Positions 14,816 through 63,846 of a DNA stretch of 64,000 nt are shown in pieces. The stretch spans positions 1,681,069-1,745,068 of the forward strand of contig NC_057759.1 in NCBI RefSeq assembly GCF_004010195.1, in the 5' to 3' direction. The DNA comes from Chiloscyllium plagiosum. Lineage: Eukaryota. The notes below the pieces were generated by a model that was not told the DNA's origin, ran no database searches, and saw only the letters and a program-made list of their open reading frames with translations. The translations under genes were made by a program, and so were the position numbers. Positions within the stretch are counted from its first letter, which is position 1. Every line of letters begins with the position of its first letter.

Positions 14816-14829
14816 GGCATGGGAACACC

Positions 14830-15465
14830 TGTCTTTGTTAGCTGAGAGTTTAAGAGCAGGAAGTTTGTTCTGGGACTGTATGAAACATCGGCTAGTCCAC
14901 TCAACGAGACTAACGTATGCAGTTCTGGAATCAACATTCCAGAAGAGGTGTAATAGCACTCGGAGAGGGCGTGGAGGGAGAATTACTAGGATGTTGTCTC
15001 AGGGCTGGAGAGTTTCAGTGATGGAAAGAGATTGGACAGACTGGGTTGCTTTCCTTAGAGCAGAAGAGATTGAGAGGGGGGCATGGTTGAGATGTAAAAT
15101 CACGGCCAGAAATAGGATAGACAGGAAGAAACCTTTCGCCTTTGATGGAGGGAGTAATAACTGGGATGGGGAATGGGCGTGAGGGGAAGGAAGGTGCATA
15201 CATCCAAAGTAAAGGGCAGAAGGTTTAGAGAGGGATATGAGGAAAACCTTGCTTACACCGAGCTGGACGAGAATCAGGAACTTACTGCCCGTAAAGGTAG
15301 GAGAGGCAAAAACTATGATCACATTAAAAAAGTGTTTAGATATCCACTTGAGACGCCAAAGCTATGGGGCCACGTGCTAGGGAAATGGGATTTGAAAATA
15401 GTGAGGTGGCCGTTTTTGAGTAGAACAGATCTGATGGATTGAAGAGCCTTTTGCTGTACTGTAGA
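14830..15465 (+). mobile_element. Old CR1/L2-type LINE 3' fragment shared by both arms (mirror 62960-63650)
   Basis: gagagaattactaggatgttg-like core and 3' UTR. Mirrored in the right arm. Confidence 0.75.
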
Positions 15466-15845
15466 TCTCGAGGACTGTACGTTTCTAAGCTTTATAATTT
15501 TTAAAAAGATACTAATGGCCATAATACACTTTTGACATTTCAAACAACAGAACCTGACAATGTAACCATGGTCATGTTGAATATTGTAATTCTCACAACG
15601 TTAGTTATGGAAACTGCTGGGAAATATAATCAGCAAATCAGTGGAACTTCGTGACAGTTACAAAAAAAAAAAGAGAGAAATGAGAAGATTAACTTTTAAA
15701 ATAATGTCTATAAAGCTGTACACAAATTTCAGCATAAAGTTTGGTAAGCTGGTTATCATCAGTTTTACTGATAATCAAGTGTAAACGTATTAACGAAGTA
15801 ATTTTGATGTTAATGATTTATTGCATTCCAATTTCTTATACTCAC

Positions 15846-15880
15846 ATATCTCCTGCATTTTGACAGCACTTGGAAATGAA
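15846..15880 (-). pseudogene. Leader mini-exon (35 bp here, 36 bp in the paralog) of the LRC-type receptor, left copy
   Basis: ctgttttccattAG ... GTgagt. Mirror of 62583-62618 and 1 bp shorter. Confidence 0.55.
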
Positions 15881-16152
15881 CTAATGGAAAACAGTAAAAG
15901 AATAGCTTAATATTAATATTTTCCTCTTGACAAATCTGGAGACTGACATACATGTAAATTTCTGTGATGTGACATTTGGGTGGTGGAGGTCAGAGAAGGG
16001 AGTATAATTTTTTTTTCAAGATCGTGAAACGTGTTTAAAATTGGTGTAATGCTTGTTAAAGATACTTCAGGTTGAGTTTTAACGGTCATTCCTTCAGAGA
16101 GTTTTGTTAATATGTTACTTTGAATGTTGTGCACACATAATTTTAAAAAAAC

Positions 16153-16214
16153 TGATTATACATAATAGTAGCGTAGCAGTGCATGAGCTCTCTCATCACC
16201 ACTCTCCCACCAGT
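16153..16214 (-). pseudogene. Leader exon 1 of the LRC-type receptor, left copy
   Basis: Polypyrimidine acceptor, hydrophobic read CTATLLLCII ending in a phase-1 GT. Mirror of 62237-62301. Confidence 0.45.
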
Positions 16215-16469
16215 CTGCATTAATAAGGAATAGACAAAAAAGGAAATGACCTGGTCGAGCTGACAAAATAACAAATCCATCAATACATTAGCATGAGTAA
16301 CTGTGATTGAAGTAAAAATCTGTCGAATTATTTTGTGGCCAGTTAGGAAACAGCACGGGGGAAACCGTCATTGGTGTGAATTAATTTTAGAACACAAACT
16401 TATAATAAACATTTTTACCACATTGTAATCAAGAAAACGCTGATACAATGAATGTGGATAATGTCACAG

Positions 16470-17150
16470 AGGCACAGGCATACAGCACGGAAATAGACCC
16501 TGCTGTCCAACTCACCCATGCCAACCAGCCATCCCAATCTAACATCGCCCCATCTGCCATTTGGCCCATATCCCTCTAAATCATGCCTTTTAAATGTTGT
16601 TATTGGACCTGCGTGCACCACCTCCACTGACTGCTCGAACAATACACACACCATTTTGTGCATGAAAATAGTACTCATCAAGTGTCTTTTAAAATATTTC
16701 CTCTCTCACCTTAAACTTATGTCCTCTAGCTTTGGATTCCTCATCCTGAGGATAAACAACTTGGTTATTCACGCTACCCATGCCCGTCGTCATTTTATAA
16801 ACTCCTATAATATCACCCCTCTGCCTCCAGCACTGCAGGAAAAGAAAGCCCTAGCCCATTTAGCCCCTCCCTATAACTCAAACCGACCTGTTCTTCTGTT
16901 ACATGTTCTTTTTCATTCTAAAAGTTGGAAATCTTATCGGCACCCACTCAAGTTGAACACAATCTTTCCAAAGAAGTGTGACTAAGGTTATAGTCAGTAT
17001 TCTAAGAGTGGCCTCAACAAATTGCAGTACAGCAGCAACATGACATCCCAAATCCTGTACTCAATGTTGTGACCAATGAAGATAAGAATGCTAAAGGTCT
17101 TCTTCACCACTCTGTCCACCTGTGTCTCCACTTTCAAGGAACGATGAACC
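16470..17150 (-). mobile_element. Old CR1-type LINE 3' fragment shared by both arms (mirror 61300-61985)
   Basis: VEVVHAGPITTFKRH motif. Same position and mirrored orientation in both arms. Confidence 0.8.
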
Positions 17151-17293
17151 TACCACGTCACGTACTTCTCTAAAATACATAAAGGGGCTGCTATCCCCTT
17201 TATGTTAAACACACCATTGGTTATTCTATACGACACATGTGGGGCCGTCTATTTCTGTAAAACATCTGTTTAACCTTCAACCAAAATAATCCA

Positions 17294-18106
17294 GAAATTT
17301 GGGTATCTTTTCTGCACCTTGCTAGATGCACCATTCCATTTGTATATTTTACTCTCAAGGAATATGAATCTTCTATCATACCTGAAGTGTGTATTTATAA
17401 AGTTCCCCATCACATATTGGCAAAAATTACTCCCGATGAACTATCCCTTTGATATGCATATTTCTTTTGTTCAGCTGTCAGATGAATGACGTCACATTCA
17501 AACTTGAAATAAAGCCCCCAGTGAAACTTATGCAAATAATCGCACAAGCTGCCAAAGAAATTTCAGAGATGTTGTGACAAAGGCAGAGCAAGGTGGGGCC
17601 TGCCATTCTCTATAATACACATAGGGACTGCTAATCAGTAATAAATTAATAATGAGCAATTATACAGTTTATGTGGAGACTCAACAATCAAATCACCATT
17701 AATATGCAGCATGTGTACAATATGTTTTCCTAAGATAGTGCATTGAGGCACCAACCTAGGATTGGACCAGGTTGGATGCAATACTTCAGAGTTAATTAAT
17801 ATCTGCTCTTTAAATATGCCTATGGGAAGTAGTGACCATGACATCGTAGAATTCTGCGAAGTAGTGACTTTAATATTTACCGGGCTTTATTTCAAGTTTG
17901 AATGTGACGTCATTCATCTGAAAGCTGAACAAAAGAAATATGCATATCAAAGGGATAGTTCATCGGGAGTAATTTTTGCCAATATGTGATGGGGAACTTT
18001 ATAAATACACACTTCAGGTATGATAGAAGATTCATATTCCTTGAGTGTACAAATATACAAATGGAATGGTGCATCTAGCAAGGTGGAGAAAAGATACCCA
18101 AATTTC
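17294..18106. repeat. Near-perfect ~225-bp inverted repeat (17294-17517 / 17882-18106), 364-bp spacer
   Basis: Direct reverse-complement reading shows only a few mismatches or indels. Confidence 0.95.
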
Positions 18107-19649
18107 ATCAGTTGAAAGCAGGCAAATTGTAAGACTGTCAGAAACAATGGGAAGCCTGAAGATTGGGAGTAATTAAGGACCCAGCATAAAACTATCAAGA
18201 AATTGTTGAGGAAAGGAAATCAATACAAATCCAAGCAAGTGATGAATATAAAGATGGATGGAAAAGTATTTTTTTTAATGATACAGTGAAAGGAAAATAA
18301 ATTAAACAACTTAAATGTGGATCCATCACAGATGACGGTAGGAAAATTACACTAGCAAACAGGACAGTAGAGCTAACAGTCTTGCAGAGATCACTGGAAC
18401 ATACAAAACAGGCCTTTCGACTCTCCAGCCTACTCTGCAATTCAACAGGATCATGGCTGTTCGGGCATTCTTCACATTCACTTTCCCACCCTTTCCCTGA
18501 TGACAGTTGATTCCTCTATGAACCAAAACTATATCTACCTTAGCCTTAAACATACACAAGGACTCTGCCCCCCACACCACTCTTAACAGCAAGGAGTTCT
18601 AAAGACTCGCGATTCTCTGAAAGAAGAAACTCCTCCACATCTCAGTCTTCAATTGGTGCTACTTTATTCTAACACTATGCCGTTTTGTCGTAGACTCGCC
18701 CATGAGGGGAAATGTCCTCTCAGCATTGACCCCATCAAGCCGCTGAGGAATCCTACCTGTTTCAATTGGATCACCCCTCATTCTTCTAAACTCTAGTGAA
18801 TAGAGTGCCAAACTGTTTAACCCGCAAGGAAAATGATCCAGCAAATCATCCAGGTGAAAGTGATGCAGAGAAATATACAAAGTGCCAAAGAAATTTCAGA
18901 GAGGTTGTGACAAATAAAAAGTGATAGTTCATATAAAAATATTGAGAGTGAGGGATAGTAAATATCCTTAACTGATTGATGTTAATGATAGTGGTGACGA
19001 AACAGCAAAGAATAATTGACACATTGTTGGCTACCTTTTGTAAATCTGTACATGCTGCAACTGGTCATGCTGACTCAAACATATTTAACATAAAACCTTA
19101 CATAGCAAGGAAAAGGGGTAAATGGAGATCTTTGTTAACTTGATGATCAGAATAGAGAACATATTAGAATCTAATAGGGAGAATCTAGTAACGGAGTGGA
19201 GCAAAAATAGTAAAATTGGACAGAGCCAACATTATTGTGTTAACAGAACATAGAACATTACAGCGCAGTGCAGGCCCTTCAGTCCTCGATGTTGCACCGA
19301 CCTTTGGAATGAATCTGAAGCTCTACAGTCTAACCTCATCCATATGCCTACCCAATGACCATTTAAATGCCCGTTAATGGGAATCATGCTTGAGAAAACT
19401 GATGGAGCATTTTAAGCATATTCATTGCAACATTTGTAAATGAAAAACTGAGAAGTGAATAGCTTCTCAGAAGGCTTTTCATAAGATCCCACACAGGCTG
19501 CCAACAAAAATAAGTACAGAGCATGAATTGAATAGTAAGGTTTGAAAATTGATGAGTATAGAGAAAGCAGAAAGGAGGAAAGAATGAGTCATTCTCAGGA
19601 GGCAAGCTTTTCTCACAGGTCATCATAACCATGAGGCATCATGAGTCTC

Positions 19650-20310
19650 GAGATCCTTAAAGGTGTCAGCACAGGCAGCCAGAGTGGTGAAGAAGGCATT
19701 TGGCCTACAGCATGGGTGTAGAGTATAGGAGCAGGAAAATCTTGTTGCAATTTTACAGGCCATGGGTTAGAACACACATGGAACACTGTGTGCAGTTCTA
19801 GTTGCCACTATATCTGAGAGACGTGATAGCACTGGAGAGAGTGAAGAGGAAATACACTAGGTTGTTGCCTGGGATGGAAAGTTTCAGTTTTTTTGGGAGA
19901 CGTTGGATAGGCTGAGTTTGTCTTTCCTGGGGAAGAGGAGGTGGGGGGATCTGATTGAAGAATACAAGTTAATGAAGCATAAACTGAGAAGGATGTTGAA
20001 ATCCTTTACCCATGACAGACCTGTCTATGATCAGAATCCTTAAGCTTAAGGTGAGGAATAAGTGGCTTTTAAGTGTCAGGAAACTTTTTATTTGTTCCAG
20101 ACGGTGGTAAAAAAATGGACCTTCCTGGCTGAGATGTTGATGTAATCAGATACTATTACAACATGGAATCAGCATCTGGACAAGCAATCCAAATAGCAGG
20201 GGAGCGTGGGTTATGGATAAAGTGTAAGAAAATGGGATCCGTCTGTTTGTCAGAATGGACATGGAGGGTGAAAGGACCTGTTTCTATGCTGTATGACTCT
20301 ACGTCTCTGA
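19650..20310 (+). mobile_element. CR1-type LINE 3' fragment, left-arm specific
   Basis: gtggtgaagaaggcatttgg ... ctgtatgactcta tail. Confidence 0.8.
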
Positions 20311-21767
20311 TTCTGTGACAAGGATCAGGCCCATGGCTCAGCAACATTTCAATGATTTGGATGACGAGGCAAATGTTAATATTTCCAACATTGATGAAGG
20401 AATAGGGCTATTCAGGCTCTCGAGCCTGTTCCACATTCACTAGGACCATGGCAAATCCAACACCCCTAAAGTGATATTGCTGCAAATTCAGGAATATGAA
20501 TACCTCATTAAAGTCTTCAATTCTTTTATTGTCAGCTCGCATCCACTTTTCCTTCCACAAATATTCCAAAACCTGTCTGCCTCAATTTAAATATATTTAG
20601 GCATGCGAATACATTGCTTTCGCTGTTAAGAACTTTCCAGAAGTCCAATTTAGTTCAGTCTGCCCCACGGTAACATTCACTCCTATTCTGCCTCTCAATT
20701 TGAGTCAGGTTATCTTTGCTTTGACTACATATTAGATTGGATTTTCCTTTCAGTTATTTAATTAATTTCTTAGTTCAAAGTTGTACAATTTGTAGTCACT
20801 TCAACGTGATCCACCTCTTCATAAAAAATCAAATCAACACTAGTTTTTCCGAAGAAATTTCATATATCATCTAGAATTTCATCGGGTTTATAAAGACATC
20901 TCTCTCTCCTTCTGTATCTTATTGAATTGATTTCCTTTCCTGCTTGTCTTTCTGACTGGTTGGAAGGTAACAGTCTGTCTTGAGCAAGTTCCCTGCAGAA
21001 CTGAGATGACAACATAAGTTGTCATGTGGTTTCCCAAAGCTGTTTCTGTCATCCATGCTCGTGGGGCAAGTTATTGATAAACATAAAAAAAGACAACATT
21101 GTTGGGCAGTCAGCACAGAGACAGTGTGTGGAAGTGAGAGAGCCCCAAGATCCCTCAGCTAGCTTACAAACGGGGCCAACTGTAGCTCAGTTGTCTGAAA
21201 AGATGGCCTGTGATGCATGTTCGGAAGAATAGAGGCATGGACTATTTTATAAATGGGAAGAAAATTCAGAAATTAGAAGTGCAAAGAGACTTGCGAGTCC
21301 TAGTCCAGGTTTCTCTGAAAGTAAACTTGTAGATTGAGTTGGTCATTAGGAGGGTTAGGAAGGTTAGGAAAGTTAGGAAGGTATATACAATGTTGTCAGT
21401 CGCCTCAACAGCAAGAGAATATAAAAGCAGGGATGTACTTTGGAGGCTTTATAATGCTCCTGTCAGACCACCTTTAGAGTATTGCGATCAATTTGAGTCC
21501 CATACCTCAGGAAGGACGTATTGGCCCTAGAGAAGGTTCAGAGGATGTTCACGAGAATGATCTCAGGAATGCAAGGTTTAACATATTAGGAAGGTTTGAG
21601 GACTCTGAGACTCTACTCCATGGAGTTTAGAAGGATGCGGGGGGAATCTGTGAAACTTCCAAAATACTGAATAACCTGGATAGAAAGGACGTTGGGAAGA
21701 TGTTTCCATTGGCAGGAGAGAATAGGACCAGAGGGCGCAGCCTATGGGTAAAGTGAAGGCCTTTTCG

Positions 21768-22053
21768 ATTAGATTACTTTAGATTAGATTAGACTACTTA
21801 CAATGTGGAAACAGGCCCTTCAGCCCAACAAGTCCACACCAACCCTCCGAAGAGTAATCCACCCATTCCCCTACATTTACCTCTTCACCTAACACTATGG
21901 GCAATTTAGTATGGCTAATTCACCGAAACTGCACATTTTTGGACCGTGGGAGGAAACCGGAGGAAACCCACGCAGACACGGGGAGAATGTGCAAACTCCA
22001 CACAGACAGTTGCCTGAGGCTTGAATTGAACCCGGGTCTCTGGTGCTGTGAGG
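21768..22053 (-). mobile_element. HE1-like SINE with (gatta)n tail, left-arm specific
   Basis: ggaggaaacccacgcagacacggggagaatgtgcaaactccacacag core and gattagattac repeats at 21768-21800. Confidence 0.9.
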
Positions 22054-23446
22054 CGCATTCTACATCAAGTGCAGTCTCAACTTTCACATGGGATGCTGGG
22101 ATGTAGGCTGCTGTCAGCAATCACTAAATCGATGGTCTCCATTGTGAATCCAAGTACAGCGCATTTCAATGTTTTGTAAAGTGCTTGATATTGATTTTTC
22201 AGTGGCTCATGATCACAGGAATCGTTTACAGGAAGTCAGCCATTTGTTGAAGCGTGTTGCAAAATGACATTCTCCCAGCTCCTACATAGTGTTCAGTGTT
22301 TATTGAAGTTTTTATTTCAGTAATAATGGCCAGAGATGTGGAAAAAGGAAAATAGAACCGCAGTTGTCTAAAGGAGCTCCGAGGCAGTCGAAGATTCACT
22401 CTATTCGAGCACATGTTAATTGTAAAATGAACATATTTTGTTATATCTCAACCATTTCGATCATATTTTAGTAACGTTTTACCTGCATATCACTTATCTG
22501 ATTAACGTAGCTCCCTTTTACCTTTCAATTCAATGATCAGAACACTGGCTAAATTATTCATGTTGCAGGTTTGCTCAATACATTCAGTTCAGCAGCTTCA
22601 TCCTTGCCTTTCCCTCCAGCGTAAGATCAGGAGTGTTTGGCGATGATAGTATAATGTTCGGCACCATTTACCACTGCTTAGATACTGAGGCAAACCATGT
22701 ACAAATGCAAAAAGATCTCGACAAGATCCAGGCTTGGCCTGAAAGCAGCATGGCAAGCACCGGCCATCTCTCTCCGGGCATGTTTTCAAATCTTCTGACT
22801 TTCTCTGTCAGTTCATGTGAAAGGACAAGCCTTGTAGAATGGAGATGAGCAGGAATTTCTTTGTCCGGATGGGAGCGATTCTGTGGATTATGTTTTGCTG
22901 TAGTGAGTCGTGGGGGTCAAGGTATTGAGTGACTTTAAGACAGAGATAGATCGGTTCTTGATTGATGAGGGGATCAAGAGTTGCAGGGAGAAGACAGGAG
23001 AATAGAGTTGAGAAACAGTTCAGCCAAGAGCAAATGATGGAGCAGGCCAAATGGACTGAATGGCCTAATTCTGCTCCTTTATCTTGCAGCCTTCTGTCTG
23101 CTAGACCAGATAGGGACCATAGATTTTCATCGCTGAAGGACATTAATGAACCAGGCGGGACAAACAACAGGGCAAATAATTTGAAGAAAGTGAAAATAAT
23201 AACCTCCCTTATGGGACTGTAGAATAATTAAAGAATATTTCACATACAGCAACATGTCACAGTTGTCTCTCGCAGGAAATCAGTCTGCCCTATTCCAATG
23301 CCAATTGTTAATTCTTCCATATGTTTATTTTCTTTGGCAACTTGTCCATTTCACAGTTGAGAGCCACACGTGTATATATTTATGCAAAAGGAGAACGTCC
23401 ACTTCCAAACCTCTTGCAGAGTGAAAGAAAGCTTGCTCATTTCCAC

Positions 23447-23728
23447 CTTCTACATTCAGTTTGCAATCACGATTCTTGCAACTTCCCCAAACGGAAACTG
23501 TGCACCGGTCTCTATTTCTCTGTGCAAATAGCTTTGGCATTGAGTATCTCCCACCAACATCCTGTCAAAATAGATTTCTTCAAAAAAGGGAAATTCCATC
23601 ATCTCGTATCCACGCAACTGAAGGAAGGTTATTTCTCCTTTGAACTAACTTTATGCCATTTTCATATGAAGCCTCTCCAAAGTTGCAAAATAAAACAGGA
23701 TAAAGAGCGATGGATGGGTGCTGGAGTT
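23447..23728 (-). pseudogene. Butyrophilin/B7-like IgC exon, left copy (282 bp, phase 1-1)
   Basis: ctgtttcAG | ELQHPSIALYPVLFCNFGEASYENGIKLVQRRNNLPSVAWIRDDGISLF*RNLF*QDVGGRYSMPKLFAQRNRDRCTVSVWGSCKNRDCKLNVE | GTgga. YENGIKLV, WIxDDG, QDxxGxYS and the final Cys match the BTN/B7 C-domain pattern. Two stops. Confidence 0.6.
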
Positions 23729-25352
23729 CTGAAACAGCCACAAACAGAACGTTTAAGAAGAGTTCGAAACAAATGCGTATACTTAACTCCTCGTAAATAG
23801 TCTCTTAAAGCCAAACTTGACCTTTTCATTGTTGATCACCACTAACCCAATCTCATTCTGCAAGGACGATCAGTGCATCATTTCATTGCGTATACTCTCA
23901 TTTTATTTGTACATTTTAAATGTACTCATTTCGTCTTCATGGCATTTATAACAGATTCTTTTTTTAATGACCTGCTTAAAATTTCAAGCTAGAAATAATC
24001 AAAGAGTTTGCAAAGGCTTTTTTTTTATTTCTTTGCAAATTGTACAAAGTTCAACATTATATTAATGGCTCCACGTATTTGCAACTTTGAATGAAAGCCT
24101 GTAAAGAGTACGTGATTTGTAAAATACTGAAAAGCTCACCATCTGGGCATTTTTGGAAACAACAATTAAAAGCAGCAACTATAGCAGGTTTAAAACTGAA
24201 AGTGGCAAAACCCAGGTAATGTCAAATACACGAGAAAGAATAAAATAGACAAACAAGCAAAAGCAGGTATCCAGCTCTTAAACTTGACCATATCTATTTT
24301 TAGTTTTAAACACTGGAGCTAAAAGCTTGGCAAACTTGATTCTGGTTTTAAAATCATTCAATTTCCCTTGTGCTTAAATCTTCACAAATTACTGAAGGAT
24401 ATCTCTTAACCTGGAGGAGCAAGTAGAGTGTGTGATGAACACCCATCACAGAAAAAAATTTCTTCAGCCAGAGGCAGGTGAATCTGTGGAATACAATGCC
24501 GCAGAGGCCTGTGGAGGCCATGTCATTCAGTGTATTTAAGACAGGTATAGACAGGTTCTTGATTTAACGGATTAAAAGTTGCAAACAGAAGGCAAGAGAA
24601 ACATGTCAGCTACAGTCAAATAGCGGAGCAGACTCAGTGGGTTGAATGGCCTAATACTGCTCTGATGTTTTGTGGTCTAACACGCATGCGCATCATTGCT
24701 TGTGCTGTCATAGTTTATGTCGAGTTTAGGATTTAGAGAAGGATAGAATACATTGGATCACATTACTTACTGTGTAAGTAGATGTTTTCATAGTAATTAT
24801 TAACGTCACAGAGGCCTACAATATATTATGAGGCTCTTCAACCCATGGATTCTGCACCATCAAAAACAAACCAATTCCACTTTACCAGCACTTGGTCCAT
24901 AGCCTTGGCAACGCAAGTGCAAATCTAAATCCTTCTACAACGTGATGAGGATTTCAACCTTTCCCACCCTTATTGTCAATGAGTTCCAGATTCTCCATCA
25001 TCCTCTGGGGAAACTGATTGTCTTCACATACCCTCTGAACCTTCTGTCTGAGTTGTTGTGTTGTTCTGTTATCAAGTGATTAACATCCTCACAAGTGGGT
25101 CCAGCACACATTTATTTGTCAGGAGACATTTTGAAGCAAGTTACTGTCTCTCAATCCTGTGATTGTGATTTCATACATTATGGATCTTCGGCAAGTTACA
25201 GAAATCAACAGCAAAATCATAGTGTTGTCGAAATGTTGAGTCTTAAAGGAATTTGGGGCTATTTTTACAATCTTCCCACTGACCACGTTAACAATTAAAT
25301 AGAAAATCTTGAAACCTGATTTAACCAAAAGAACTGCACTGCATGATTTCAC

Positions 25353-53401: not shown

Positions 53402-53827
53402 TTAAACGTCATTGGCGAGAATCGGACATTGCGATCAGTGATTGGTCAATTCATTGGCTGAGTACCAAGAAGTCTCTGGAAGAATGAGGACTCTTTGAGA
53501 TAGAAGTTACCAGAAGAAAAGATTGTTCGGGAGTGACCCCTCAAGACCAATATTTGAGAAATACATGACCTGAAGTTATCTGCAGAGATCAAATGGCAAC
53601 ATCTACCAACAGCATAGTTGGTCACTTCACTCAAATTGGAGCAGTATTTGTTTCAAGCTAAATTTATGAAGTTAGAGGAAGCAAGAAGTACATGTTGCAA
53701 CGCGTGTATGTTTCATATTGATACCTAAAGAGCTATATAAAGAAAGATTTGTTTAATGATCTTTTGAATTGAAAGCCTCTGTCACACAAGGGAGGAACAG
53801 ATGGGGAAGGCTGAAGTTCTCTTTCAG
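53402..53827 (+). pseudogene. Butyrophilin/B7-like IgV exon remnant, right copy (3' boundary uncertain)
   Basis: Fragments LNVIGENRTLRSVIGQFI / EYQEVS / SICFKL / YEVRGSKKYM / YKE...ELKAS, resembling FxVIGxxxxxxAxVGxxxxLxCQL ... YxExxxELKV. Confidence 0.45.
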
Positions 53828-54336
53828 GTAAAAGCTCTTCATAGCCCATGGAAACCGTCTGAAAAGCAACTGAAATCAGTAACAATTCAGAATGGGCAAC
53901 AATTTCTGGCCATGCCAGTGATGTCCACACCCGATTAAAAAATAATGAGGCAAAGAGTACAGTAAAGTAATCGATTTTCCAACCAGAATCCCTACAGTGC
54001 ACATAGAAGCCATTTAGTCCACCAAGTCTGCACTGATGTCCCAAAGACCATTCCATATCTTCCGCCATGGCTAAATCACCAAACCTGCACATTCCTTGAC
54101 ACAATGGGGCAGTTTTAGCATGGTCATTCCACCTAACCAGCATGTCTTTCAACTGTAGATGAAACGGAAGACATCCACAGGAAACGGACACAGTCACAGG
54201 GAGAACGTGTTAGCTTAAAACAGTAACCCTAGGCCCTGGTGCTGGGATGCAACAATTCTATCCACTGAGCTACCATAAAATACCAGTTAGTTTAGCTCTG
54301 TCTTTTCCTGTTAATGTCATGAAGACTTCAATCAGA

Positions 54337-54705
54337 TCTCACCCAAATCTTGGAAATTCTAGAGAGAACGATATCACCTTCTAAAAGAAGCAAAAGCACA
54401 ATTAGATTGATAATTTCAGAAATTACGAGAATGTTTTTTTTTGCATTATGAAGACTCTGTGAATAGATATTGTTTTCTATAAAAAAAAACCTGGAGATTT
54501 GGAGAGTTTCCTTGATGTTTGATGAACCTATCGTTTCTCCCTTGGAAAGAATATAAGTTTGATGATCATTGCTCAAGGAATATAGAATTGAACATAAATG
54601 CACAGTATATACAGGAATGAAGTATATGGATCTGTTGTCAATGCTTATTATTTTTTGGACAAGTGATTTCCTTCCAACAAAGATCTTTGTTTTGTTAATA
54701 ATGTT
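54337..54705 (+). pseudogene. Second exon-like conserved block (possible extra V-type domain), right copy
   Basis: Fragments GKNISLMI / LLKEYRIEHKCTVYTGMKYMD, with several stops. Confidence 0.3.
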
Positions 54706-54851
54706 GAGTTCTTTTGCTTAAATCGGCGTTCAAGGGTTTCTATTTAAATGTTAACGGGGTCCCTAGGGAGGATCTCTTTCAGACTCTATATATTGATAAC
54801 ACTTTGATTTTGCTCTGGACTTCTGTAATTTGCCTAAGCTCCAATATGTAT

Positions 54852-55571
54852 TGTTACGACACGAGGTAAACCCCTCTGCTAATTTAAACCAGCAACACAG
54901 ATAAGTTTTATCCCATGCTGAAATCTGTTAAAGTTCGACAGGCAAAGAATTATCCCAGTAGACATTATTTAAATTAAACGTAGCATATTAATTCTTTATG
55001 TCTAACAGAGAATAATAACTAACAACTATTTACAACTCCTTTCTATTAAACCTATCTTTTACTTCCCCCGCTAGAATACTAGTCCGATATAAAATTCAGA
55101 TTTCGATTTCCCATTCAAAAAAATCACGTTTTAAAACCAGTCAGCTTTTCCGAGTTTCCTTGGTAAATCTTTATGTGTTGTTTCCTTCTTCAGGGATTCT
55201 GCTTCACATGTCTTTGGTAGATAAAGGTAGAGAACAGTTCTGCGGGCAGTCTGTACTTATTGGTGGCTCGCTCCTCTTTGCCAGTCTGGCTAACTGGTCA
55301 AAACGCCTGATATATATACCGCACAACTTCAGATAATGTCACTGGTTTTAATTTTGTCAAAATTCAAATTTGCTTGGCGTTTGGTATCTTGGGGCATAAT
55401 TTAAACTGATTGGCCGAAATTCAATTTGTTTTTGTCTCAGAGTTATCCAAATACAACAAGCTGTTCGAACAAATTTTGCATTTTAATTTTTCCAGTATTC
55501 CGTGTGCTTGCTCAGTCCTTGCTAGCCTTTCAACTCTCTTAATGGTACAGTACAGTTACAGCTTCATAACG
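54852..55571. mobile_element. Solo LTR (720 bp), Gypsy/ERV-type, 4-bp TSD GTAT
   Basis: Ends TGTTACGA ... TCATAACG (decayed TGTTA..TAACA). GTAT at 54848-54851 and 55572-55575. The left arm (~25165-25200) has the empty site with a single GTAT. TATA-like run at ~55310. Confidence 0.85.
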
Positions 55572-56782
55572 GTATGAAATCAGGATTGCAGGGTTGAGAG
55601 ACAGTAACTTGCTTCAAGCTGTCTCCTGTCAAACAAATGTGTGGTGTACTCTTAAGGGTGTTAATCACTCAGTCATTTAACCACACAACAACTCAGGCAG
55701 AAGTTTTAGTGTGGATGTGAATAAAATCTTTTTCACCCAGAGGGTGGTGAGAATCTGGAACGCACTGCCAGCAAGGGTGGGAAAGACTGAAACCCTCATC
55801 ATATTGAAGAAGGATTTAGATGTGCACTTGTGATGGCAAGGCTATGTGCCAAGTGCTGCAAGGTGGAATTGGAATAGTTTGCTTCTTTTTGAAATGTGCA
55901 GACTCAATGGCCTAAAGAGCCTGAAGTACGAATACCTCTGTGTCGTTCATAATTACTATAAGCATCTACCTACACAGTAAGTAATGGGATCCAATGTATT
56001 CTATCGTTCTTTAAATACTATTATCAACATAAACCATGGCGGATAATCATGTTCATGCATGTAAGACTACAAAACATCCCAGCAGTTTTAGACCATTCAG
56101 CCCATTGCGTCTGCTCTGCCATCTGATTGTAGCTGATATGTTTCTCCTGTCTTCTCTCCATAATACTTGAACCTTTTAATCATGAACCTATCTATCTCTG
56201 TCTTAAATACAATCAATGACTTGGCCTCCATTGCCCTCTGCAGGAATGAGTTCCACAGATTCACTACACTCTGGTTAAAGGAATTCCCCCTCATCTCAGT
56301 TGCAAAGAGCTGTCCCTTAACTGTGCCCTCGGGTCCAATTCTACCGAGAAGCAGATCACGTTCTTCTTATATGATGGGATTTCATCGCTCACTGTACTTG
56401 TTGCTCGGGTAAAGACATTGGCTCCATGCATTTGTGAAGGTTTAAATAAAATGGACATTAAGCGATTTTAAAACCAGTGTCCAGTTTGCTATGTTAATGG
56501 CTCCAGTATTGAAACCAAATAATAGATAAGATCAAGTTTGAGAGCTGGATACCTGCTTTTGCTTGTTTGTCTATTAATGTGTTATTTCCTCATGTTTTTG
56601 ACATTACCTGACATTACCTGATTTTTGTTTTAAACCTCCTACAGGTGCTGATTTTCATTTATGTGTGCAAAATGCCTAGATGGTTAGAAAGAAAGTATTA
56701 TAAAAAGCATGTACTTCTTACTGGTTTTCATTCAAAGCTGCAGACATGTGAAGCCATTAATTCATTGTTGAATGTTGCACAG

Positions 56783-56985
56783 AACCACCCCCTGACATCA
56801 CCACAAGAAATAACATCACCATAGGAAATTAAATCATCAACCAAAGAAACCCATACACATAAATAGAAAGCAGGAATTTTGAGCAGTGCTTCTCCTGAGG
56901 CCCATTGAAGATGTTACCTAGTAGGGTAGCGAAACGTCTGGAAATGAACCTTCAAGTTCACCGAGCAAACCTACATCCAAAAAGT
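56783..56985 (+). mobile_element. Penelope-like element terminal fragment with decayed hammerhead (56902-56941), right-arm specific
   Basis: cca-tTGAAGA-tgttacctagtagggtagc-GAAACGTC-tgg followed by gagcaaacctacatcca. Absent at mirror ~24030-24045. Confidence 0.65.
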
Positions 56986-57266
56986 CAATCAGCAGCTGCA
57001 ACTGTATTGACTATTCCCATGCTTGAAATTTAATGCAGGCCATTAAAAAAGAAATCTGTTCTAAATACCATGAATATAGAATAATTGCATCTAAAACATT
57101 CAGATATCAAGGGAGAGTATGCAATGGAATGATGGGAGACTGGGAGGGGACAAATGGTGATGCACAAACCAAATTCAATTTTGGCTTCAAGAGAAAATTT
57201 ACAAGCAATTAATTATACACATTTGTTTCGAGCTCTTCTTAAAAGTTCGGTTTGTGACTGTTTCAG

Positions 57267-57546
57267 ATCTTCAGCGTCGATCCATTGCTCTTTGTCTTGT
57301 TTTATTTTGCGACCTTGGGAAGGATTCATATGAAAATGGCACAACAGCTAGTTCAAAGGATAAATAAACTTCTTTCAGTTGGATAGATACGAGATGATGG
57401 AATTTCTCCTTTATAAAGAAATCCAGTTGACAGGATGTTGGTCAGTGCTACTCACTACCACAGCTGTTCTAAAACTTATATAGAGATTTGCACAATTTCC
57501 ATTTGGGGGCGTTCCTCGAATCGTGATTACAAACTGAATGTCGAAG
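57267..57546 (+). pseudogene. Butyrophilin/B7-like IgC exon, right copy
   Basis: Mirror of 23447-23728: DLQRRSIAL...SYENG...IRDDGIS...CTISIWGRSSNRDYKLNVE. It has frameshifts and stops, and the donor GT has become AT. Confidence 0.55.
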
Positions 57547-60066
57547 ATGGAAATGAGTTAGCTTTTTGTTCACTCTGCAATAAGTTAGGAATTGCAATGT
57601 TCTCCTCTTGCATGCCTTTAATGCACTTAATAATTTTACTTCCACAGTTCGCTGCAGCAAAAGCATTCCACAGAATCACTTCCATCTGGCCGAAGAAATT
57701 CCTGCTCATCTCCCCTCTATAAGATGTGTCCTTTCACACGGAAAGAGCTGGAGAAAGTCAATAGGTCTGGCAAAATCTGTGGAGAGTGATGATCTGTGCT
57801 TACAATGTTTAACGTGAATGTGACATGCCACTTGCTTCCCAAACCTGAATATTACCTACATCTCGTTGCATTTGAACATGGTCTGCTTCAGTGTCTGAGC
57901 AGTGGTGATTGGTGCTGAAAATTGTGCAATCATGGCAAATATCCCACTCCTGACCTTACACAGGAGGGTAGGGCAAGAATGAAGTCGCCGAGTTGAATGC
58001 ATTGAAAAACCTGCAACATGCATAATTTAGCCAGTGTTCCAATGATTGAAATGGAAGGTAACAGGGAGCTACTTAACTCAGATGAAATGTTATGATGGTG
58101 AAATGTTATTAAAATAAGATAGACATGGATGAGATGTAAAAAAAATACGTTCAGTTTATACTTAACGTGTGTGAGAACAGAATTAATCTTCGATTGTGTC
58201 GGAGCACCTTTTGACAACTGCAATTCTACATCCAATATCCCACGATTCTGGCCATTAACACTGAAACAAACCCAGGCGCCAATGATTATGAAGGAGCTGG
58301 GAGAATGTGGTTTTCCAACACACTTCACATTGTACATGACATTTTAACTGCAGTTGAACAAGGCTGCGCACCACCACCCTCACAAGGGCAATTGGGGATG
58401 GGTAATAATTAAAACAAAATCTAGATGTCTCAGGTAAATGGATAAACACAGTAACATGTGGAATACGCAATCAGCTTTTCTTCTTCCAAGTAAACACTTT
58501 GATCCTTAAAAGTATAGTAGCACATTTTACAGCATCTCAAATTTGACAACTCACGATAGTGTATCATTAATATTCTCCTTTGAATGGGATTCAGATAAAC
58601 CTTATGTATATTAAGCATTCCAATTTCATTTCCATTCTGTATTTGTGATCTTCGACCCTTAGGCATCAGAGCAGAGATCAACCCATTCGGCTCATGGAGT
58701 CTGAACGCCACTAAACCAGGGCTGATTAGGTTTTTCAACCCTATTTTCCCCTTTCTCCCTGAAACTTTTCATCCCTTTGTGAAATAACAACTTATCTACT
58801 TCTGTTTTAATTGTAACTTCTGCTCAGTCCTTCATAGTCTTCTTTGACAATGAATTCACATATTCACTATTCTGTTGTTAAAGAGATTTATCCTTATCTC
58901 CGTTCCAAAAGACCTTCACTTTACTGTGCCCTCGGGTCCTATTCTCTCCTGCCAATGAAAATATCTTCCCAATGTCCACTCTGTCCAGACTGTTCAGTAT
59001 TTTGAAAATTTCAGTAAGAAAACCTACTCATTCTCCTGAACTTCACCGTATATAGACACAGCGTCCTCAAATGTTGCTCATATGTTAAGCTTTTCATTGC
59101 TGGGATCTATCTCATGAACATCCTCTGGACCTGTTCCAAAGCCAAGACACGCTTCCTGAGATATGGAGCTCAACATTGCGCATAATACTCTGTAGGTAAC
59201 GTGACCATACCCTTAATAAGCCTCCGAAGTGCATCCCTGTTTTTATATTGTCGTCCTGTTGAGGCAGATTACAACATTGTGTTTACCTTCCTAACTACCA
59301 ACAAATTCTCCTTAAGTGAAACCTGGACTAGGACTTCCAAGTCCCTTTGCACTTCCAATTCCTGAATTTTCTCCCCATTTAGAAAGTAGTCCAGGCCTCC
59401 ATTCATTCGACCATGCATCACAAGGAAACTGTCCAGCCAACTGAGCTACATTTACTCCTGTGTGTAATCTAGCTGAGGGACCTTAGGGCTCTCTCATTTC
59501 CACACACTGCTGCCGTGCTGACTGCGCAATAATGTTTTTTTTACTTTTAGCAATAACTTGACTCACCCAAATATGGATGATAGAAATTGATTTGGGAAAC
59601 CCATGAACACTTATGTTGTCATCTCAGTTCCTGTTTCACCTTGCTCAAGACAGACTGTTATCTTCCAAACAGTTAGAAATTTAAGCAGGAAAGGAAGCAA
59701 ACACACCATGGTTCTGATACCCCGTGTGGAAAGCTCGCGTCCTAGAATGAGTCACTCATTCCACCACCCTGCTTTCTATATACTGAGCAATTTCCAAACC
59801 GCACGTTTTAATCCACCCAGTCCCATGAACTGTATTTGTCTTTGTTGATATCCTGTGTGGGATCTTACGTAAAGCCTTTGGAAAACCACGTCACTTCTCT
59901 GTTTCTCATTTCCAGATAGTGCAAGGAATATCGTCGAAATGCATCATCAGTGTTGTTAAGCATGTTTTTTTTTAATTTAATGCGCCCTTATTGGCTCTGT
60001 CTAATTTTGCCACTCCTCACTCCATGCCCAATTACCAGATTCTCTCTAATCGATTGTATCATGTTC

Positions 60067-60555
60067 AGAAGTGTTCAGAAAAGATTTACAAGGCTGTTAC
60101 CAGGGTTGGAGGATTTGACCAATAGGGAGAGGCTGATCAGGCTGGGCTGTTTTCCCTAGAGCGTCAGAGGCTGAGGGACGACCTTATAGAGGTGTACAAA
60201 TTTTGAGGGGCATGGGTAGGATAAATAGACAACTTCTTTTCTCTGGTTTAGTGTAGTTCACAACTGGAGGGCTTAAGTTCAGGGTGAAAGGGGAAAGATA
60301 TAAAAGAGACCTAAGGAATAACTTTTCCACGCAGTGTTGTGTGAGTATGGAATGAACTGCCAGAGGAAGTAGTGGAGACTAGTCGAATTGCAACATTTAA
60401 AAGATCTCTGAATGCTTATATGAATATGAAAGATTTAGAGGGAGATGAGCCAAATGCTGGCCAATGGGATTAGATTACGTTAGGGTATCTGGTCGACATG
60501 GACGAGTTGGACCAAATCGTCTTTTTCCATGCTGTAATCTCTAAGAGTCTTTGAC
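60067..60555 (+). mobile_element. CR1-type LINE 3' fragment, right-arm specific
   Basis: SVQKRFTRLLPGLEDL. Absent at the mirror position (~19155-19165). Confidence 0.85.
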
Positions 60556-62236
60556 TCCATTCTCTATATTGTCGTTGCCAGGCTAAGAATAGGCTCTATT
60601 GACACCTTTTCCTCATTATTTAAGAGGTCATATTGGATACCTTCAAGTCAGCATGACCATTTTCATAGTGTATAGAATTATGAAATACAGATGATAATGC
60701 AGCAATTATGTTTTGGCAGTCATCGGACCCGCTTACTTTGAACTCATGAAATCTAGATAGTATTCATGAATCTTGGTAGATCCATCGTTCCTGTTGGATG
60801 TTTGTACATTAAAGGATTGCGTATCTCTTGTGAAACCTAAAGTGTTTGTTTATAGATTTGTCCATCTCCTATTGACTATTTTTCCGAGTTTTCAAAGCTT
60901 ACTCTAGATGATCTACTCCCTGGATATCTATATTTTCATTGTTCAGTTTAAGATGAATGATGTTGCATTCAAACTTAAGATTTTGGGATGTTATTGTCAC
61001 TATTTCCCACAAGTCTATGATGTTGTGGTCACTATTTCGCATTGGGTCATTTAAAAATACAGTATCAATCAACCTTTCTCATTATAACATATTAAAACCA
61101 ACTTGATCTGTTCCTAGAATGGTGCCTCACCCCTAGCCCAGTAAAACATTCCAGGAATTCATCTTCCATCATATTAACACTGATTTCAGAATTGAGTGTC
61201 CTCGTAAAGATCAATTGCTCTTTTTACAGAATAGCAGTCCTTGCGAGCATTATAAAGAATAGCAGTCCCTGTGTGCATTACAGGGGGCTGCCAATAGGGT
61301 GCAGATGCACACTTCCTGTAAACTGGGATCACAGGGAGACAGGGTGCTGAAGAACGTGTTTGCTACACTTTCATTCATGATATGGAACACTCAGTATAGG
61401 ATTTGGGAAGTCATGTTGCGGCTTTACGGGAAATTGGTGAGGCACAATACACCATTCTATTTCTAGTCGCCCATATATTGATAAGATATTGTTACAGCTA
61501 TAGTGCGAGGGCGCAGAAAAGATTTACAAAGTATGGCTGGGATTGGAGAATTTGAGTTGTTGGTGAGGCTGAATAGTTGTGGGGATTTTTCTCCCGAAGC
61601 AACAGAGATTGAGAGTTTATAGCAGTTTATAGAATGATGAGGGGCACGGACAGGGCAAGTACTCCAAAGCATTGTTGCTATGGCGAGGGAGTCCAAAACT
61701 GGAGAGCATCGTTTGAAGGTGAGAAAGGACAGAACTAAAAAATGACTTGAGGGGATTTTTTTTTTTGACAGAGCGAGTGGTGCACTAGAGAATGACCCGC
61801 CAGAGGAAGTGGTAGAGATGCGTAGAGTTACAGCATATGAAGGAATGAGGAAGAGTATACGGACAAGATGTTCAGAAGGATGTGGGGTAAACGCTGACAC
61901 ACATGGCGAGGTCAGATTTGTTTGTCTGGTTGCTGTGGATGATGTTTACTGCAGGGTCTGTTTACATGTTGCATAACTTTGATTCCATCCACATTAAATT
62001 TCACCTTAATTCCTTGATGATAACATGCCCAAAATGTGTATTATAGGTTTCATGCTCTATAAATAATTAGCATCAATGACTGTTTCCCCTTTGCTGATTC
62101 CCAACCGGATCCAAAATAATTCGATATCTTTTTACTTCAATCACATTTCCCCGTGCTAATGTATTCATGATTTTGTTATTTTGTGAGCTAGCCCAGGTCC
62201 CTTTCTTTTTTTTTTGCCTATTCTTTCTTAATACAG

Positions 62237-62301
62237 ACTGTCCTGGGAGAGTGGTGATGTGATAGCTCTATACACTGCTACACTAACATTATTTATAATC
62301 A
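62237..62301 (+). pseudogene. Leader exon 1 of the LRC-type receptor, right copy
   Basis: tattctttcttaatacAG acceptor. 62259-62301 reads (V/M)IALYTATLTLFII, phase 1. The start codon and donor are decayed. Confidence 0.45.
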
Positions 62302-62582
62302 GCCCTCGACTTCAAACCTAAAGACTTCTGGTGTGTGCGTCCATAACATTCAACACATTACCAAAACTGTCTGAAGGAATGCCTGTTAGAACTCAAAAAC
62401 ATCTTTAATTAATATTACACCAATTTATGCAACATTCAACAATCTTGCAAAAACATTACACTCCCGTCTCATGGCCGCATAATCAAAATATGCCATTACA
62501 GAAACTTGCACCTCTGTCTGTCTCAAGATTTGCAAAGAGGAAAGTATTGATATTCAGCAATTCGTTTATTGTTTCCTCTTAG

Positions 62583-62618
62583 TTCATTTCCACATCCTGG
62601 TAGAAATGTGGGACATAT
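62583..62618 (+). pseudogene. 36-bp leader mini-exon, right copy
   Basis: gtttcctcttAG | xHFHILVEMWDI | GTtagt. Exactly 36 bp, phase 1-1. Confidence 0.6.
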
Positions 62619-63270
62619 GTTAGTGTGAGAATTCAAAACGCATTTAATGCATTGACATAAAACAAAACTTCGGTAATGCTTTTCGCCTTCATTATCAGAT
62701 TAATTGATTAGAACAGTTTAAACAAAACTACTACTGAAGTTTTTATACATGTTTAGACATCATTTTTAAAGTTAATCTTCTCATGTCTCTTTTTTGGCGT
62801 GCATTATGAAGTGCCACATAACCAGTGGTGTGAGAACTACAATGTTTAATGTAATCATAGCTGCATCATCGGGTTCTGTTGTTTGAAAGTACATAAAAGT
62901 GTTAAACATAAAGAAGACTTTTTAAAAAAAATCATTAACAGCACAGTCCTGGAGGTCTACAGCACAACCAAAACCTCGTTGACACATCCAGTCAAACAAA
63001 AACCTAACCAATCTATTCCCACGTTCCTTTCACTTGGCCACATAACCTTGGCATCACAAATGCAACTATAAACCATTCTTCAATGTAATAAGGGTTTCTG
63101 CCTTTCCAAACTTTACAGAGAGTCGGTTCCAGAACCCCCACCACACTCTGAGTGAAAATATTTTTTTCTGACACCCCCCTCTTCAATGCCCCTTATCTTC
63201 AATCTATGCTCTTCCTCATCATTAATCCCTCCAACAAGCGGGAAAAGCGTCTTCCTATCTACGCGATTTG

Positions 63271-63475
63271 CACCCCTCATCATTAATGTATCTCAATCAT
63301 CTCCCCTCTTTCTCAATACCCTCTATTATAAGGAAACAACCGCAATCTGCCCAATCTCTCGCCATCACTGAAACACCCCTCATCATTAATGTATCTCAAT
63401 CATCTCCCCTCTTTCTCAATACCCTCTATTATAAGGAAACAACCGCATCTGCCCAATCTCTCGCCATCACTGAAA
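63271..63475. repeat. ~103-bp tandem duplication (63271-63373, 63374-63475)
   Basis: Units differ by one 1-bp indel. Confidence 0.95.
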
Positions 63476-63846
63476 CTCTACAGCTCCCAAGGCAACATCC
63501 TGGTAAATCTCCCTCTGCATCCTCTACCAGTGATTTCACATCACTTCTAGCCACAATAATCTCATTATGTGGCATAACCGATGTTTTGTACAGCCACAGT
63601 ATCGCCTCGCTGCTTTTAAGGACTTGGCCAGACAAAGGGGAGAATCCCAACACAATTTGCTTAATTTCAAACAGTGAGATTGATTTTACGAATTCAATGC
63701 TCTGAGGTACTATCCTCTGAAACCTAGTCCATATCATCCTGTGATCCTGATACAGTAAAGTATACGTGAAGGCAGCTTATTGTAGCAGTTCAGGCATTTT
63801 GATTAAACATATCATGTAGATAAAATCATTTAATTACATTCCTTCG

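What the first reader, a model, noticed from the sequence alone, without database searches (positions are those of the whole stretch)
14820..63650. Old ~15.6-kb inverted duplication carrying a two-gene immune cassette around a ZNF spacer
Seen: collinear mirror homology of unique sequence, shared old SINE/LINE insertions and arm-specific young insertions. Each arm reads outward as a BTN/B7-like remnant followed by an LRC-type receptor. Inference: the unit of duplication was a linked BTN/B7-like plus Ig-receptor cassette, possibly a ligand-receptor or co-regulated pair, expanding by birth and death. Homology may extend beyond the Rex1 insertion on the left and beyond the window on the right.
Basis: partly seen in the sequence, partly recalled or inferred. 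Interest (0 to 1): 0.78.

Follow-up and report, generated by a model that had tools for sequence, protein, structure and literature searches.

The report
Inverted pair of dead shark receptors
The mirror-image duplication is real and old, but it holds two broken copies of one shark immune-receptor gene facing away from each other, an ordinary product of gene-cluster turnover, and the proposed second (butyrophilin/B7-like) partner gene could not be found.

Summary
The inverted duplication is confirmed: arms 14,870-30,448 and 48,000-63,599, 14 collinear blocks, 78.4% identity, with shared old and arm-specific young insertions. Each arm is the 5' half plus about 8 kb of upstream flank of one gene, a carpet-shark two-Ig, ITIM-bearing receptor whose closest solved relatives are LRC proteins (PirB, OSCAR, NKp46, LILR, KIR). 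Both copies are broken. The left one has a frameshifted leader mini-exon, no first Ig exon and three stops in the second. The right one has a dead splice acceptor and a frameshift in the first Ig exon. Intact relatives occur as 1-4 genes per carpet-shark genome. The BTN/B7-like remnant was not found by any search (weak negatives), and stops in the best candidate are shared by both arms, so any such gene was probably dead before duplication. The 'ZNF spacer' holds about 240 bp of broken fingers in 17.5 kb. Verdict: block duplication and decay in an LRC-like cluster, as in chicken CHIR; not a ligand-receptor cassette. The side interest is an apparently little-described LRC-like family in sharks.

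The parts
14870..30448 (.). Left arm of the inverted duplication (5' half and upstream flank of the left receptor copy)
48000..63599 (.). Right arm of the inverted duplication (5' half and upstream flank of the right receptor copy)
30449..47999 (.). Single-copy spacer, 17,551 bp, rich in LINE/SINE fragments; no mirror match
   Evidence: repeat nature read from the sequence
33930..34170 (-). C2H2 zinc-finger remnant, about three broken fingers with stops
   Evidence: Pfam zf-C2H2 E 2.7e-5, 2 stretches
29250..30448 (+). Old LINE start (ORF1 end and endonuclease start) shared by both arms; cut off here on the left, continuing to 46,500 or beyond on the right, so the inner breakpoint lies inside it
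   Evidence: LINE identity read from the translation, family recalled, no Pfam hit
22522..22561 (-). Left receptor, upstream exon 1 (40 nt, ATG to GT donor), matching the first exon of C. plagiosum LOC122544523 isoforms
   Evidence: score 36 vs maximum 19 in 40 shuffles; splice site
58018..58057 (+). Right copy of upstream exon 1 (ATG and GT kept)
   Evidence: by DNA alignment to the left copy; its protein match alone is not significant (15 vs null mean 14)
20927..20956 (-). Left receptor, start of upstream exon 2; the rest of that exon, with the usual start codon and first leader half, is not recognisable in either arm
   Evidence: score 40 vs maximum 30 in 40 shuffles; leader search
15846..15880 (-). 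Left leader mini-exon, 35 nt (frameshifted)
62583..62618 (+). Right leader mini-exon, 36 nt, intact, AG/GT
   Evidence: 10 of 11 residues identical to the C. punctatum receptor
63847..64000 (+). Right Ig domain 1 exon, cut by the window end; acceptor reads CG instead of AG; frame shifts by one base near 63,960
12800..14850 (+). Rex1/Babar-like LINE, left only, at the outer breakpoint; left Ig domain 1 exon is missing between here and D2
   Evidence: Pfam ALKBH8_N E 3.4e-6 (its link to Rex1 is recalled); D1 absent
11536..11865 (-). Left Ig domain 2 exon, three in-frame stops
   Evidence: 80% identical to XP_060712772.1, E 8e-41
10211..10306 (-). Left transmembrane exon, 96 nt, no charged residue in the hydrophobic stretch, AG/GT intact
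5981..6008 (-). Left cytoplasmic exon 1
5755..5807 (-). Left cytoplasmic exon 2
   Evidence: 17 of 19 residues identical to XP_060712772.1
3762..3796 (-). Left cytoplasmic exon 3
2264..2407 (-). Left last coding exon with ITIM-type motif VIYAVL and a terminal tyrosine motif
   Evidence: ITIM consensus from PMC3601082
27870..28255 (-). Conserved acceptor-like AG and V-domain-like scraps in three different frames. Unverified.
   Evidence: acceptor; no hit; stops shared by both arms in all three frames
54852..55571 (.). Right-only insertion with 4-bp target-site duplication and short inverted termini (solo-LTR-like; class inferred)
49355..50285 (+). Right-only young LINE 3' fragment with a long open frame
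   Evidence: 86.6% to 795-1,664; ORF 49,450-50,403; junctions

Best explanation
This is an old inverted block duplication of a single gene in a small cluster of LRC-like receptors in a bamboo/carpet shark. The unit was the receptor gene with at least 8 kb of upstream flank (shown for 15.6 kb; probably 28 kb or more if the right copy continues like the left, inferred). The two copies ended up head to head, about 35 kb apart. Afterwards each arm collected its own LINE, SINE and LTR-like insertions, and both copies died in this genome (lesions shown in the sequence; loss of function inferred). The intact relatives are type I proteins with a split leader, two C2-type Ig domains, an uncharged membrane anchor and an ITIM tail. 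They most likely act as inhibitory leukocyte receptors that recruit SHP-1/2 (inferred from family knowledge). The duplication most likely predates the Hemiscyllium-Chiloscyllium split (inferred). The sequence upstream is passenger flank, not a partner gene. The rearrangement mechanism is not shown. Both breakpoints sit in old LINEs, which fits repeat-assisted rearrangement or later deletion.
For: Collinear mirror series, 78.4% identity. Receptor exons map in order and strand in both arms. Family identity: profile of 17 shark proteins hits PirB first (E 1.9e-19), then FCRL5 (7e-14), LILRB and KIR3DL1; the model (mean pLDDT 82.5) matches OSCAR Z 15.0, rmsd 4.7, 174 aligned, then NKp46, PirB, LILRB4, KIR. 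Lesions: 35-nt mini-exon, no D1, three stops in D2 (left); CG acceptor and frameshift (right). Turnover: 3, 2, 1, 4 and 3 loci in H. ocellatum, C. plagiosum, C. punctatum, Stegostoma and Rhincodon, each set on one contig; left D2 pairs with intact H. ocellatum LOC132837097 (95/95), and Stegostoma (100/100) and Rhincodon (85/80) copies form their own clades. Age: the right D1 lacks a two-residue insertion shared by LOC132837097, LOC132837371 and LOC122544523, the last two being a cross-genus pair (98/99). No codon periodicity upstream. The same pattern (blocks with intergenic DNA, extra upstream exons, 41 pseudogenes of 103 loci) is described for chicken CHIR in PMC1458963.
Against: No genome is held for the window, so neither the far end of the right copy nor the neighbours of the intact paralogs were seen. 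The right copy's two lesions lie in the last 160 bp of one assembly and were not checked against reads. Loss of D1 alone would not kill a copy, since some relatives' models lack or skip D1 (P0004, P0005, P0027). The 36-residue D1 tree does not place the right copy (no starred set). FCRL5 is the second-best profile hit, so LRC versus FcR-like is favoured, not proven. Negative searches for a partner gene are weak: the genuine D2 remnant also scored 0 in Pfam and PDB.
Confidence: 0.8

Rival explanations
1. A B7/BTN-like gene once lay upstream of the receptor but was already a relic when the block was duplicated; it was copied as a passenger.
For: By eye, scraps in three frames at 28,255-27,870 (and weaker ones at 23,730-23,450, 25,500-25,380 and 26,830-26,500) recall V-domain strands; the comparison is from memory, not from a call. 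An acceptor-like AG is kept in both arms. The 441-nt gap-free block shows that the arms share their frame state. The searches have low power on frameshifted relics (controls).
Against: 0 of 140 stop-free frames and 0 of 42 read-through frames hit a V-set, C1-set, C2-set or SPRY family; the only Ig-named hit was a ZP2 Ig-like domain at E 0.17. No homolog among 7,395 candidates or in 1.84 billion representatives. A frameshift-tolerant motif chain scored 14 of 26, the same as 12 shuffles (13-15).
Confidence: 0.13
2. One reading: a functional BTN/B7-like ligand and its LRC-type receptor were duplicated together as a co-regulated cassette, and both decayed later.
For: A precedent for the pairing exists: KIR3DL3 recognises the B7-family ligand HHLA2 (abstracts). 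The receptor half of the claim is right.
Against: No partner exon was identified. 0 of 23 outward stretches of 95 codons or more that are free of shared stops carry a Cys-Trp-Cys Ig pattern. Stops are shared in all three outward frames of the best candidate (5, 1 and 3). There is no synonymous excess between the arms. Part of the conserved upstream DNA is the receptor's own 5' exons.
Confidence: 0.04
3. One or both copies are alive and the lesions are assembly errors or rare alleles (most plausible for the right copy, which keeps an ATG exon and an intact mini-exon).
For: Right upstream exon 1 and the mini-exon keep their splice sites; a C. plagiosum isoform splices these two exons directly (P0007). 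Only one assembly was seen.
Against: Two independent lesions within 115 bp on the right, and five on the left; the usual start exon is missing in both arms.
Confidence: 0.05
4. The mirror is an artefact of interspersed repeats or of assembly.
For: About a quarter of each arm has a third match in the window (3,850 of 15,579 and 3,976 of 15,600 bases). No shark repeat library was available.
Against: Strict collinearity of 14 blocks, including receptor exons and introns. 78% identity is far from the near-100% of a collapsed or folded assembly. Eight runs of organism A in two studies hold 0.49-0.78 of the sampled words of 50,700-59,700 (one study may be the source).
Confidence: 0.01

Closest known systems
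Chicken CHIR cluster (LRC on microchromosome 31), PMC1458963 (passages and section 8 read)
   Same: Two-Ig receptors multiplied by block duplications that include intergenic DNA; extra upstream exons; many incomplete or decayed copies.
   Different: The shark family is small (1-4 intact loci per species found) against 103 loci; this block is inverted and about 22% diverged.
Mammalian inhibitory LRC receptors (PirB/LILRB, KIR) and two-domain LRC members (OSCAR, NKp46)
   Same: C2-type Ig domains are the best sequence and fold matches; split leader; uncharged TM with ITIM tail.
   Different: Only 15-24% identity; no one-to-one orthology shown; linkage to mammalian LRC framework genes not testable; ligand unknown.
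Carpet-shark proteins XP_060712772.1, XP_060713022.1, XP_060712964.1 (H. ocellatum), XP_043539753.1, XP_043539766.1 (C. plagiosum), XP_072422932.1 (C. punctatum) and Stegostoma/Rhincodon relatives
   Same: Direct family of both copies; left D2 80% identical to XP_060712772.1.
   Different: Those are intact predicted proteins, mostly labelled 'uncharacterized'; the two copies here are broken.
FcR-like (FCRL) receptors
   Same: C2 domains, split leader, ITIM forms; FCRL5 is the second profile hit.
   Different: Second leader exon is 21 bp in the FcR-like rule (PMC2413239) and 36 nt here; fold hits rank LRC proteins first.
HHLA2 (B7 family) with KIR3DL3 (LRC)
   Same: Precedent for a B7 ligand binding an LRC receptor (abstracts only).
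   Different: No B7 gene was identified here; from recall the human genes lie on different chromosomes.

Membership tests
Inverted segmental duplication | Collinear reverse-strand homology of non-repeat sequence over more than 1 kb | tested here: met
   14 blocks; 9,310 of 15,579 left bases mirror-matched with no other match in the window
Inverted segmental duplication | Shared pre-duplication insertions and arm-specific later insertions | tested here: met
   target-site duplication seen for 54,852-55,571
LRC-type Ig receptor (tested on intact relatives) | Type I protein with 1-4 C2-type Ig domains most similar to LRC members | tested here: met
   PirB E 1.9e-19 first, FCRL5 second; OSCAR Z 15.0, NKp46 13.7, PirB 13.0; feature neighbours A1BG, IGSF1-like, KIR3DX1, FCAR at 0.91, a lead only
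LRC-type Ig receptor | Signal peptide split over two exons, second exon not the 21-bp FcR type | tested here: met
   36-nt AG/GT mini-exon at 62,583-62,618; split leader in LRC per PMC3601082; 21-bp FcR rule per PMC2413239; 36 bp as the LRC norm is recalled
LRC-type Ig receptor | ITIM tail in inhibitory forms | tested here: met
   VTYAVL in P0003 and P0007, VIYAVL in the left copy
LRC-type Ig receptor | Activating forms with the NxxR transmembrane type | tested here: inconclusive
   A second TM with NxxH (Stegostoma), TxxH (Rhincodon) or AxxQ (Heterodontus) occurs in relatives; no arginine; not present in the window; PMC6557307 notes the motif also in frog FCRL/SLAM-like receptors
LRC-type Ig receptor | Location among LRC framework genes (conserved synteny) | not testable with these tools
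   no genome held; contig look-up closed
Functional gene (either copy) | Open frame from leader through Ig domains to TM with intact splice sites | tested here: not met
   left: frameshift, D1 absent, three stops; right: CG acceptor, frameshift
BTN/B7-family gene remnant | Recognisable IgV exon | tested here: inconclusive
   no hit; but controls show low power, and only two of four candidate areas were searched against the large protein sets
BTN/B7-family gene remnant | IgC exon, TM exon and (for BTN) B30.2 exon in order on one strand | tested here: inconclusive
   no C1-set, C2-set or SPRY hit in the same calls; no TM exon identified
BTN/B7-family gene remnant | Open V-type frame at the time of duplication | tested here: not met
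   0 of 23 outward stretches free of shared stops show the Ig pattern; shared stops in all three frames of the best candidate. The test follows one arm's indels at a time.
Linked ligand-receptor cassette | The two genes stay adjacent in other copies and species | not testable with these tools
   no genomic context for the intact paralogs

The most novel reading that the evidence does not exclude
Shark LRC-like receptors were ancestrally interleaved with B7/butyrophilin-type genes, and the scraps near 28,255-27,870 are the relic of such a partner. A living receptor-plus-B7 unit would then survive beside an intact paralog in some carpet shark. That would mean an HHLA2-KIR3DL3-like pairing began as physically linked genes at the base of jawed vertebrates.
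Probability: 0.06. Interest if true: 0.8.

Novelty: new member of a known kind. Interest (0 to 1): 0.3.

Why it matters
The duplication itself is ordinary cluster turnover. It marks part of a probable shark LRC-like locus. A 2014 survey reported no C2-only LRC homologs in shark genomes and placed their origin with bony fish (PMC4016189, passages), and a 2026 survey lists KIR/LILR as mammal-specific (PMC13262535, passages). Here a family with LRC-like folds, a 36-nt leader mini-exon, ITIM tails and a second NxxH-type membrane anchor is found in carpet, horn, basking, saw and smooth-hound sharks. If synteny confirms it, paired LRC-type receptors date to the jawed-vertebrate ancestor, and the intact paralogs become candidates for shark NK or myeloid inhibitory receptors. 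Automatic annotation already calls some members LILRB3-like or IGSF1-like, and subscription papers were not searchable, so this may be partly known.

Tried and rejected
Whole-genome search: none held. Strict Ig motif scan of all frames: no intact D-x-G-x-Y-x-C. BTN/B7 candidates, all without an Ig-family result: Pfam on 42 read-through frames and on 140 plus 148 stop-free frames (weak off-target Ig names at E 0.17 and 0.076 only); PDB sequence searches; word-indexed search with the 23.4-23.8 kb six-frame alignment; full HMM scan with the 26.5-26.9 kb alignment; ESM Atlas on the 137-residue inward frame at 23,384-23,794, best 0.77 to bacterial hypothetical clusters; crude V-motif chain at shuffle level. 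Three of 20 inward stretches passed the loose Ig pattern but overlap repeats. A profile of shark LRC domains found no extra Ig exon and no left D1. The usual first leader exon was not found in either arm (best 17.6 of 37 with a GT donor, none starting with ATG; one single-sequence score of 23 slightly exceeded its shuffle maximum of 22). Metagenome scan returned one locus, L001, that reads as an unrelated bacterial gene; rejected. No Rfam match. No read-level check was obtained, so expression and lesions are untested. The first structure model (pLDDT 51.7) was replaced by a deeper one. Literature searches that returned no paper describing this shark family or a linked LRC-B7 unit; two searches returned nothing at all. 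No supplements were read.

Full report
Setting. The window is cartilaginous-fish DNA at about 41% GC and rich in LINE and SINE fragments. The closest homologs of its one clear gene come from bamboo and epaulette sharks. No whole genome is held, so all DNA-level statements rest on these 64 kb.

Observation. A self-comparison gave 51 minus-strand matches of 60 bp or more; 14 form a single collinear mirror series. The arms are 14,870-30,448 and 48,000-63,599, 15,579 and 15,600 bp. Global alignment of 14 blocks gives 78.4% identity over 10,950 columns, K2P 0.256. About 11.2-11.3 kb of each arm is mirror-matched, and 9.3-9.4 kb of that has no other match in the window. Seven segments of 150 bp or more in each arm lack a mirror partner. 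One, 54,852-55,571, shows a clean 4-bp target duplication, and another, 49,355-50,285, is a LINE piece 86.6% identical to a sibling. The inner boundary falls inside an old LINE that is cut at 30,448 on the left and runs on to at least 46,500 on the right. The outer left boundary abuts a Rex1-like element (family link recalled). The spacer is 17,551 bp; its zinc-finger content is about three broken fingers near 33,930-34,170. Eight runs of one organism in two studies hold 0.49-0.78 of the sampled words of the right arm. The structural observation is sound.

The receptor. A degenerate Ig exon at 11,865-11,536 is 80% identical to H. ocellatum XP_060712772.1. Mapping the intact proteins back gives a full gene on the left minus strand: upstream exon 22,561-22,522, a piece at 20,956-20,927, leader mini-exon 15,880-15,846, D2, TM 10,306-10,211, three short tail exons and a last exon at 2,407-2,264 with VIYAVL. 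The right plus strand carries the mirror start: 58,018-58,057, 62,583-62,618 and D1 from 63,847. The two left upstream matches exceed 40 of 40 shuffles each; the right ones are supported by DNA alignment only. So each arm is the 5' half of the receptor plus about 8 kb of flank, and most coding exons lie outside the mirrored part.

Both copies are broken. Left: the mini-exon has 35 nt instead of 36, D1 is absent, and D2 has three stops. Right: the D1 acceptor reads CG and the frame shifts near 63,960. The usual start exon is not recognisable in either arm. Against this, some relatives skip D1 naturally, and the right lesions rest on one assembly; no read check was obtained.

Family. A profile search returned 19 proteins among 2,273 candidates. 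Named loci number 3 in H. ocellatum, 2 in C. plagiosum, 1 in C. punctatum, 4 in Stegostoma and 3 in Rhincodon, each set on one contig; single distant members come from saw, basking, horn and smooth-hound sharks. In a D2 tree of 17 rows the left copy pairs with LOC132837097 (95/95); Stegostoma (100/100) and Rhincodon (85/80) copies cluster by species; the deep forks are open, and two long branches meet. The right copy is not placed by its 36 in-frame residues, but it lacks a two-residue D1 insertion shared by three genes that include a cross-genus pair, which suggests that the duplication predates the Hemiscyllium-Chiloscyllium split (inference; assumes no exon exchange). Against solved structures the family profile ranks PirB (E 1.9e-19), FCRL5 (7e-14), LILRB2/B1 and KIR3DL1. 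A model with mean pLDDT 82.5 matches OSCAR (Z 15.0, rmsd 4.7, 174 aligned), then NKp46, PirB, LILRB4 and KIR. The split leader fits the LRC (PMC3601082, passages), and the 36-nt second exon differs from the 21-bp FcR rule (PMC2413239, passages). Some relatives carry a second membrane anchor with NxxH, close to but not the same as the NxxR type of activating LRC members (PMC6557307, passages). It works like an inhibitory LRC receptor; membership is likely but lacks the synteny test.

The BTN/B7-like remnant. I looked for it in the single-copy blocks between 22.2 and 28.9 kb and their mirrors. By eye, four areas hold scraps that recall V-domain strands; the best is 28,255-27,870, behind an acceptor-like AG kept in both arms. 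That resemblance is from memory. No test supported it. Pfam gave no V-set, C1-set, C2-set or SPRY hit in 140 stop-free frames or 42 read-through frames. PDB searches gave no Ig hit. The two large protein searches, on the 23.4-23.8 kb and 26.5-26.9 kb areas, found nothing. A frameshift-tolerant motif chain scored 14 of 26 in all four orientations against 13-15 in 12 shuffles. These negatives are weak, because the genuine receptor remnant also scored zero in Pfam and PDB as a single sequence. A second argument does not depend on sensitivity. The arms show no codon-position bias upstream of the receptor; 0 of 23 outward stretches of 95 codons or more without shared stops carry an Ig cysteine-tryptophan pattern; and the 441-nt gap-free core of the best candidate has stops shared by both arms in all three outward frames (5, 1, 3). 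Whatever lay there was most likely not an open V exon when the block was copied.

How it arose. Shown: inverted homology, LINE-located boundaries, later insertions, lesions. Inferred: one block carrying a receptor gene and its flank was copied in inverted orientation, or copied in tandem and then inverted; the copies diverged by about a quarter of their sites; each died separately in this lineage while sister paralogs stayed intact in related sharks. Chicken CHIR shows the same process, with duplication blocks that include intergenic DNA, extra upstream exons and 41 pseudogenes among 103 loci (PMC1458963, passages and section 8). Zinc-finger genes also surround MHC-Ia-like genes in sharks (PMC10751288, one passage), so a finger remnant near immune genes is unremarkable.

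Novelty. The rearrangement is a new member of a known kind. The more interesting point is the family: PMC4016189 (passages) reported no C2-only LRC homologs in sharks, and searches returned no paper describing this family. The library lacks most subscription journals and no supplements were read, so absence from print is not established. PMC13262535 and PMC10206138 were seen as passages only. Earlier scan notes held nothing near this place, nothing similar in sequence and only unrelated micro-exon genes in the same genome.

Verdict. Observation partly confirmed; interpretation partly supported; interest 0.3.

Noticed in passing
P0028, P0036, P0041 (Stegostoma LOC132207175), P0029 (Rhincodon LOC109923294), P0032 (Heterodontus): A second membrane-anchor segment with NxxH, TxxH or AxxQ resembles the NxxR anchor of activating LRC receptors; the Stegostoma gene has isoforms with one or both anchors. 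It hints at paired inhibitory and activating forms in sharks. Not found in the window.
   Followed up: partly
window 17,294-17,517 and 17,882-18,106: A 225-bp inverted repeat at 98% identity inside the left arm only, much younger than the main duplication; the right arm has one diverged copy near 60,772-60,976.
   Followed up: no
window 43,930-44,300: CpG-rich patch (observed/expected 0.81 at 44,001-44,500) with AAGATGGCG-type motifs, about 10 kb upstream of the zinc-finger remnant on its strand; possibly that gene's promoter (motif role recalled).
   Followed up: no
window 6,969-7,278; 63,271-63,476; 40,626-40,789 with 41,475-41,638: Short recent direct duplications: 155 bp at 98%, 103 bp at 99% and 164 bp at 95%.
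   Followed up: no
window 23,312-23,800 (+): A 162-codon open frame on the inward strand of the left arm, broken by frameshifts on the right; no Pfam, PDB or Atlas support. Probably chance.
   Followed up: yes
window 60,953-61,038 and 56,794-56,892: The N-terminal extension of C. punctatum isoform X1 (P0010) matches receptor intron DNA here and a right-only insertion, so that annotated extension looks intron- and repeat-derived.
   Followed up: partly
window 12,696-12,868 and 22,059-22,247: An inverted 190-bp match links the start of the Rex1-like element to a left-only segment near 22.1 kb, a second fragment of the same element.
   Followed up: no
both arms: Transitions (1,130) do not exceed transversions (1,231) between the arms, a low ratio for vertebrate DNA; partly alignment noise, unexplained.
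   Followed up: no
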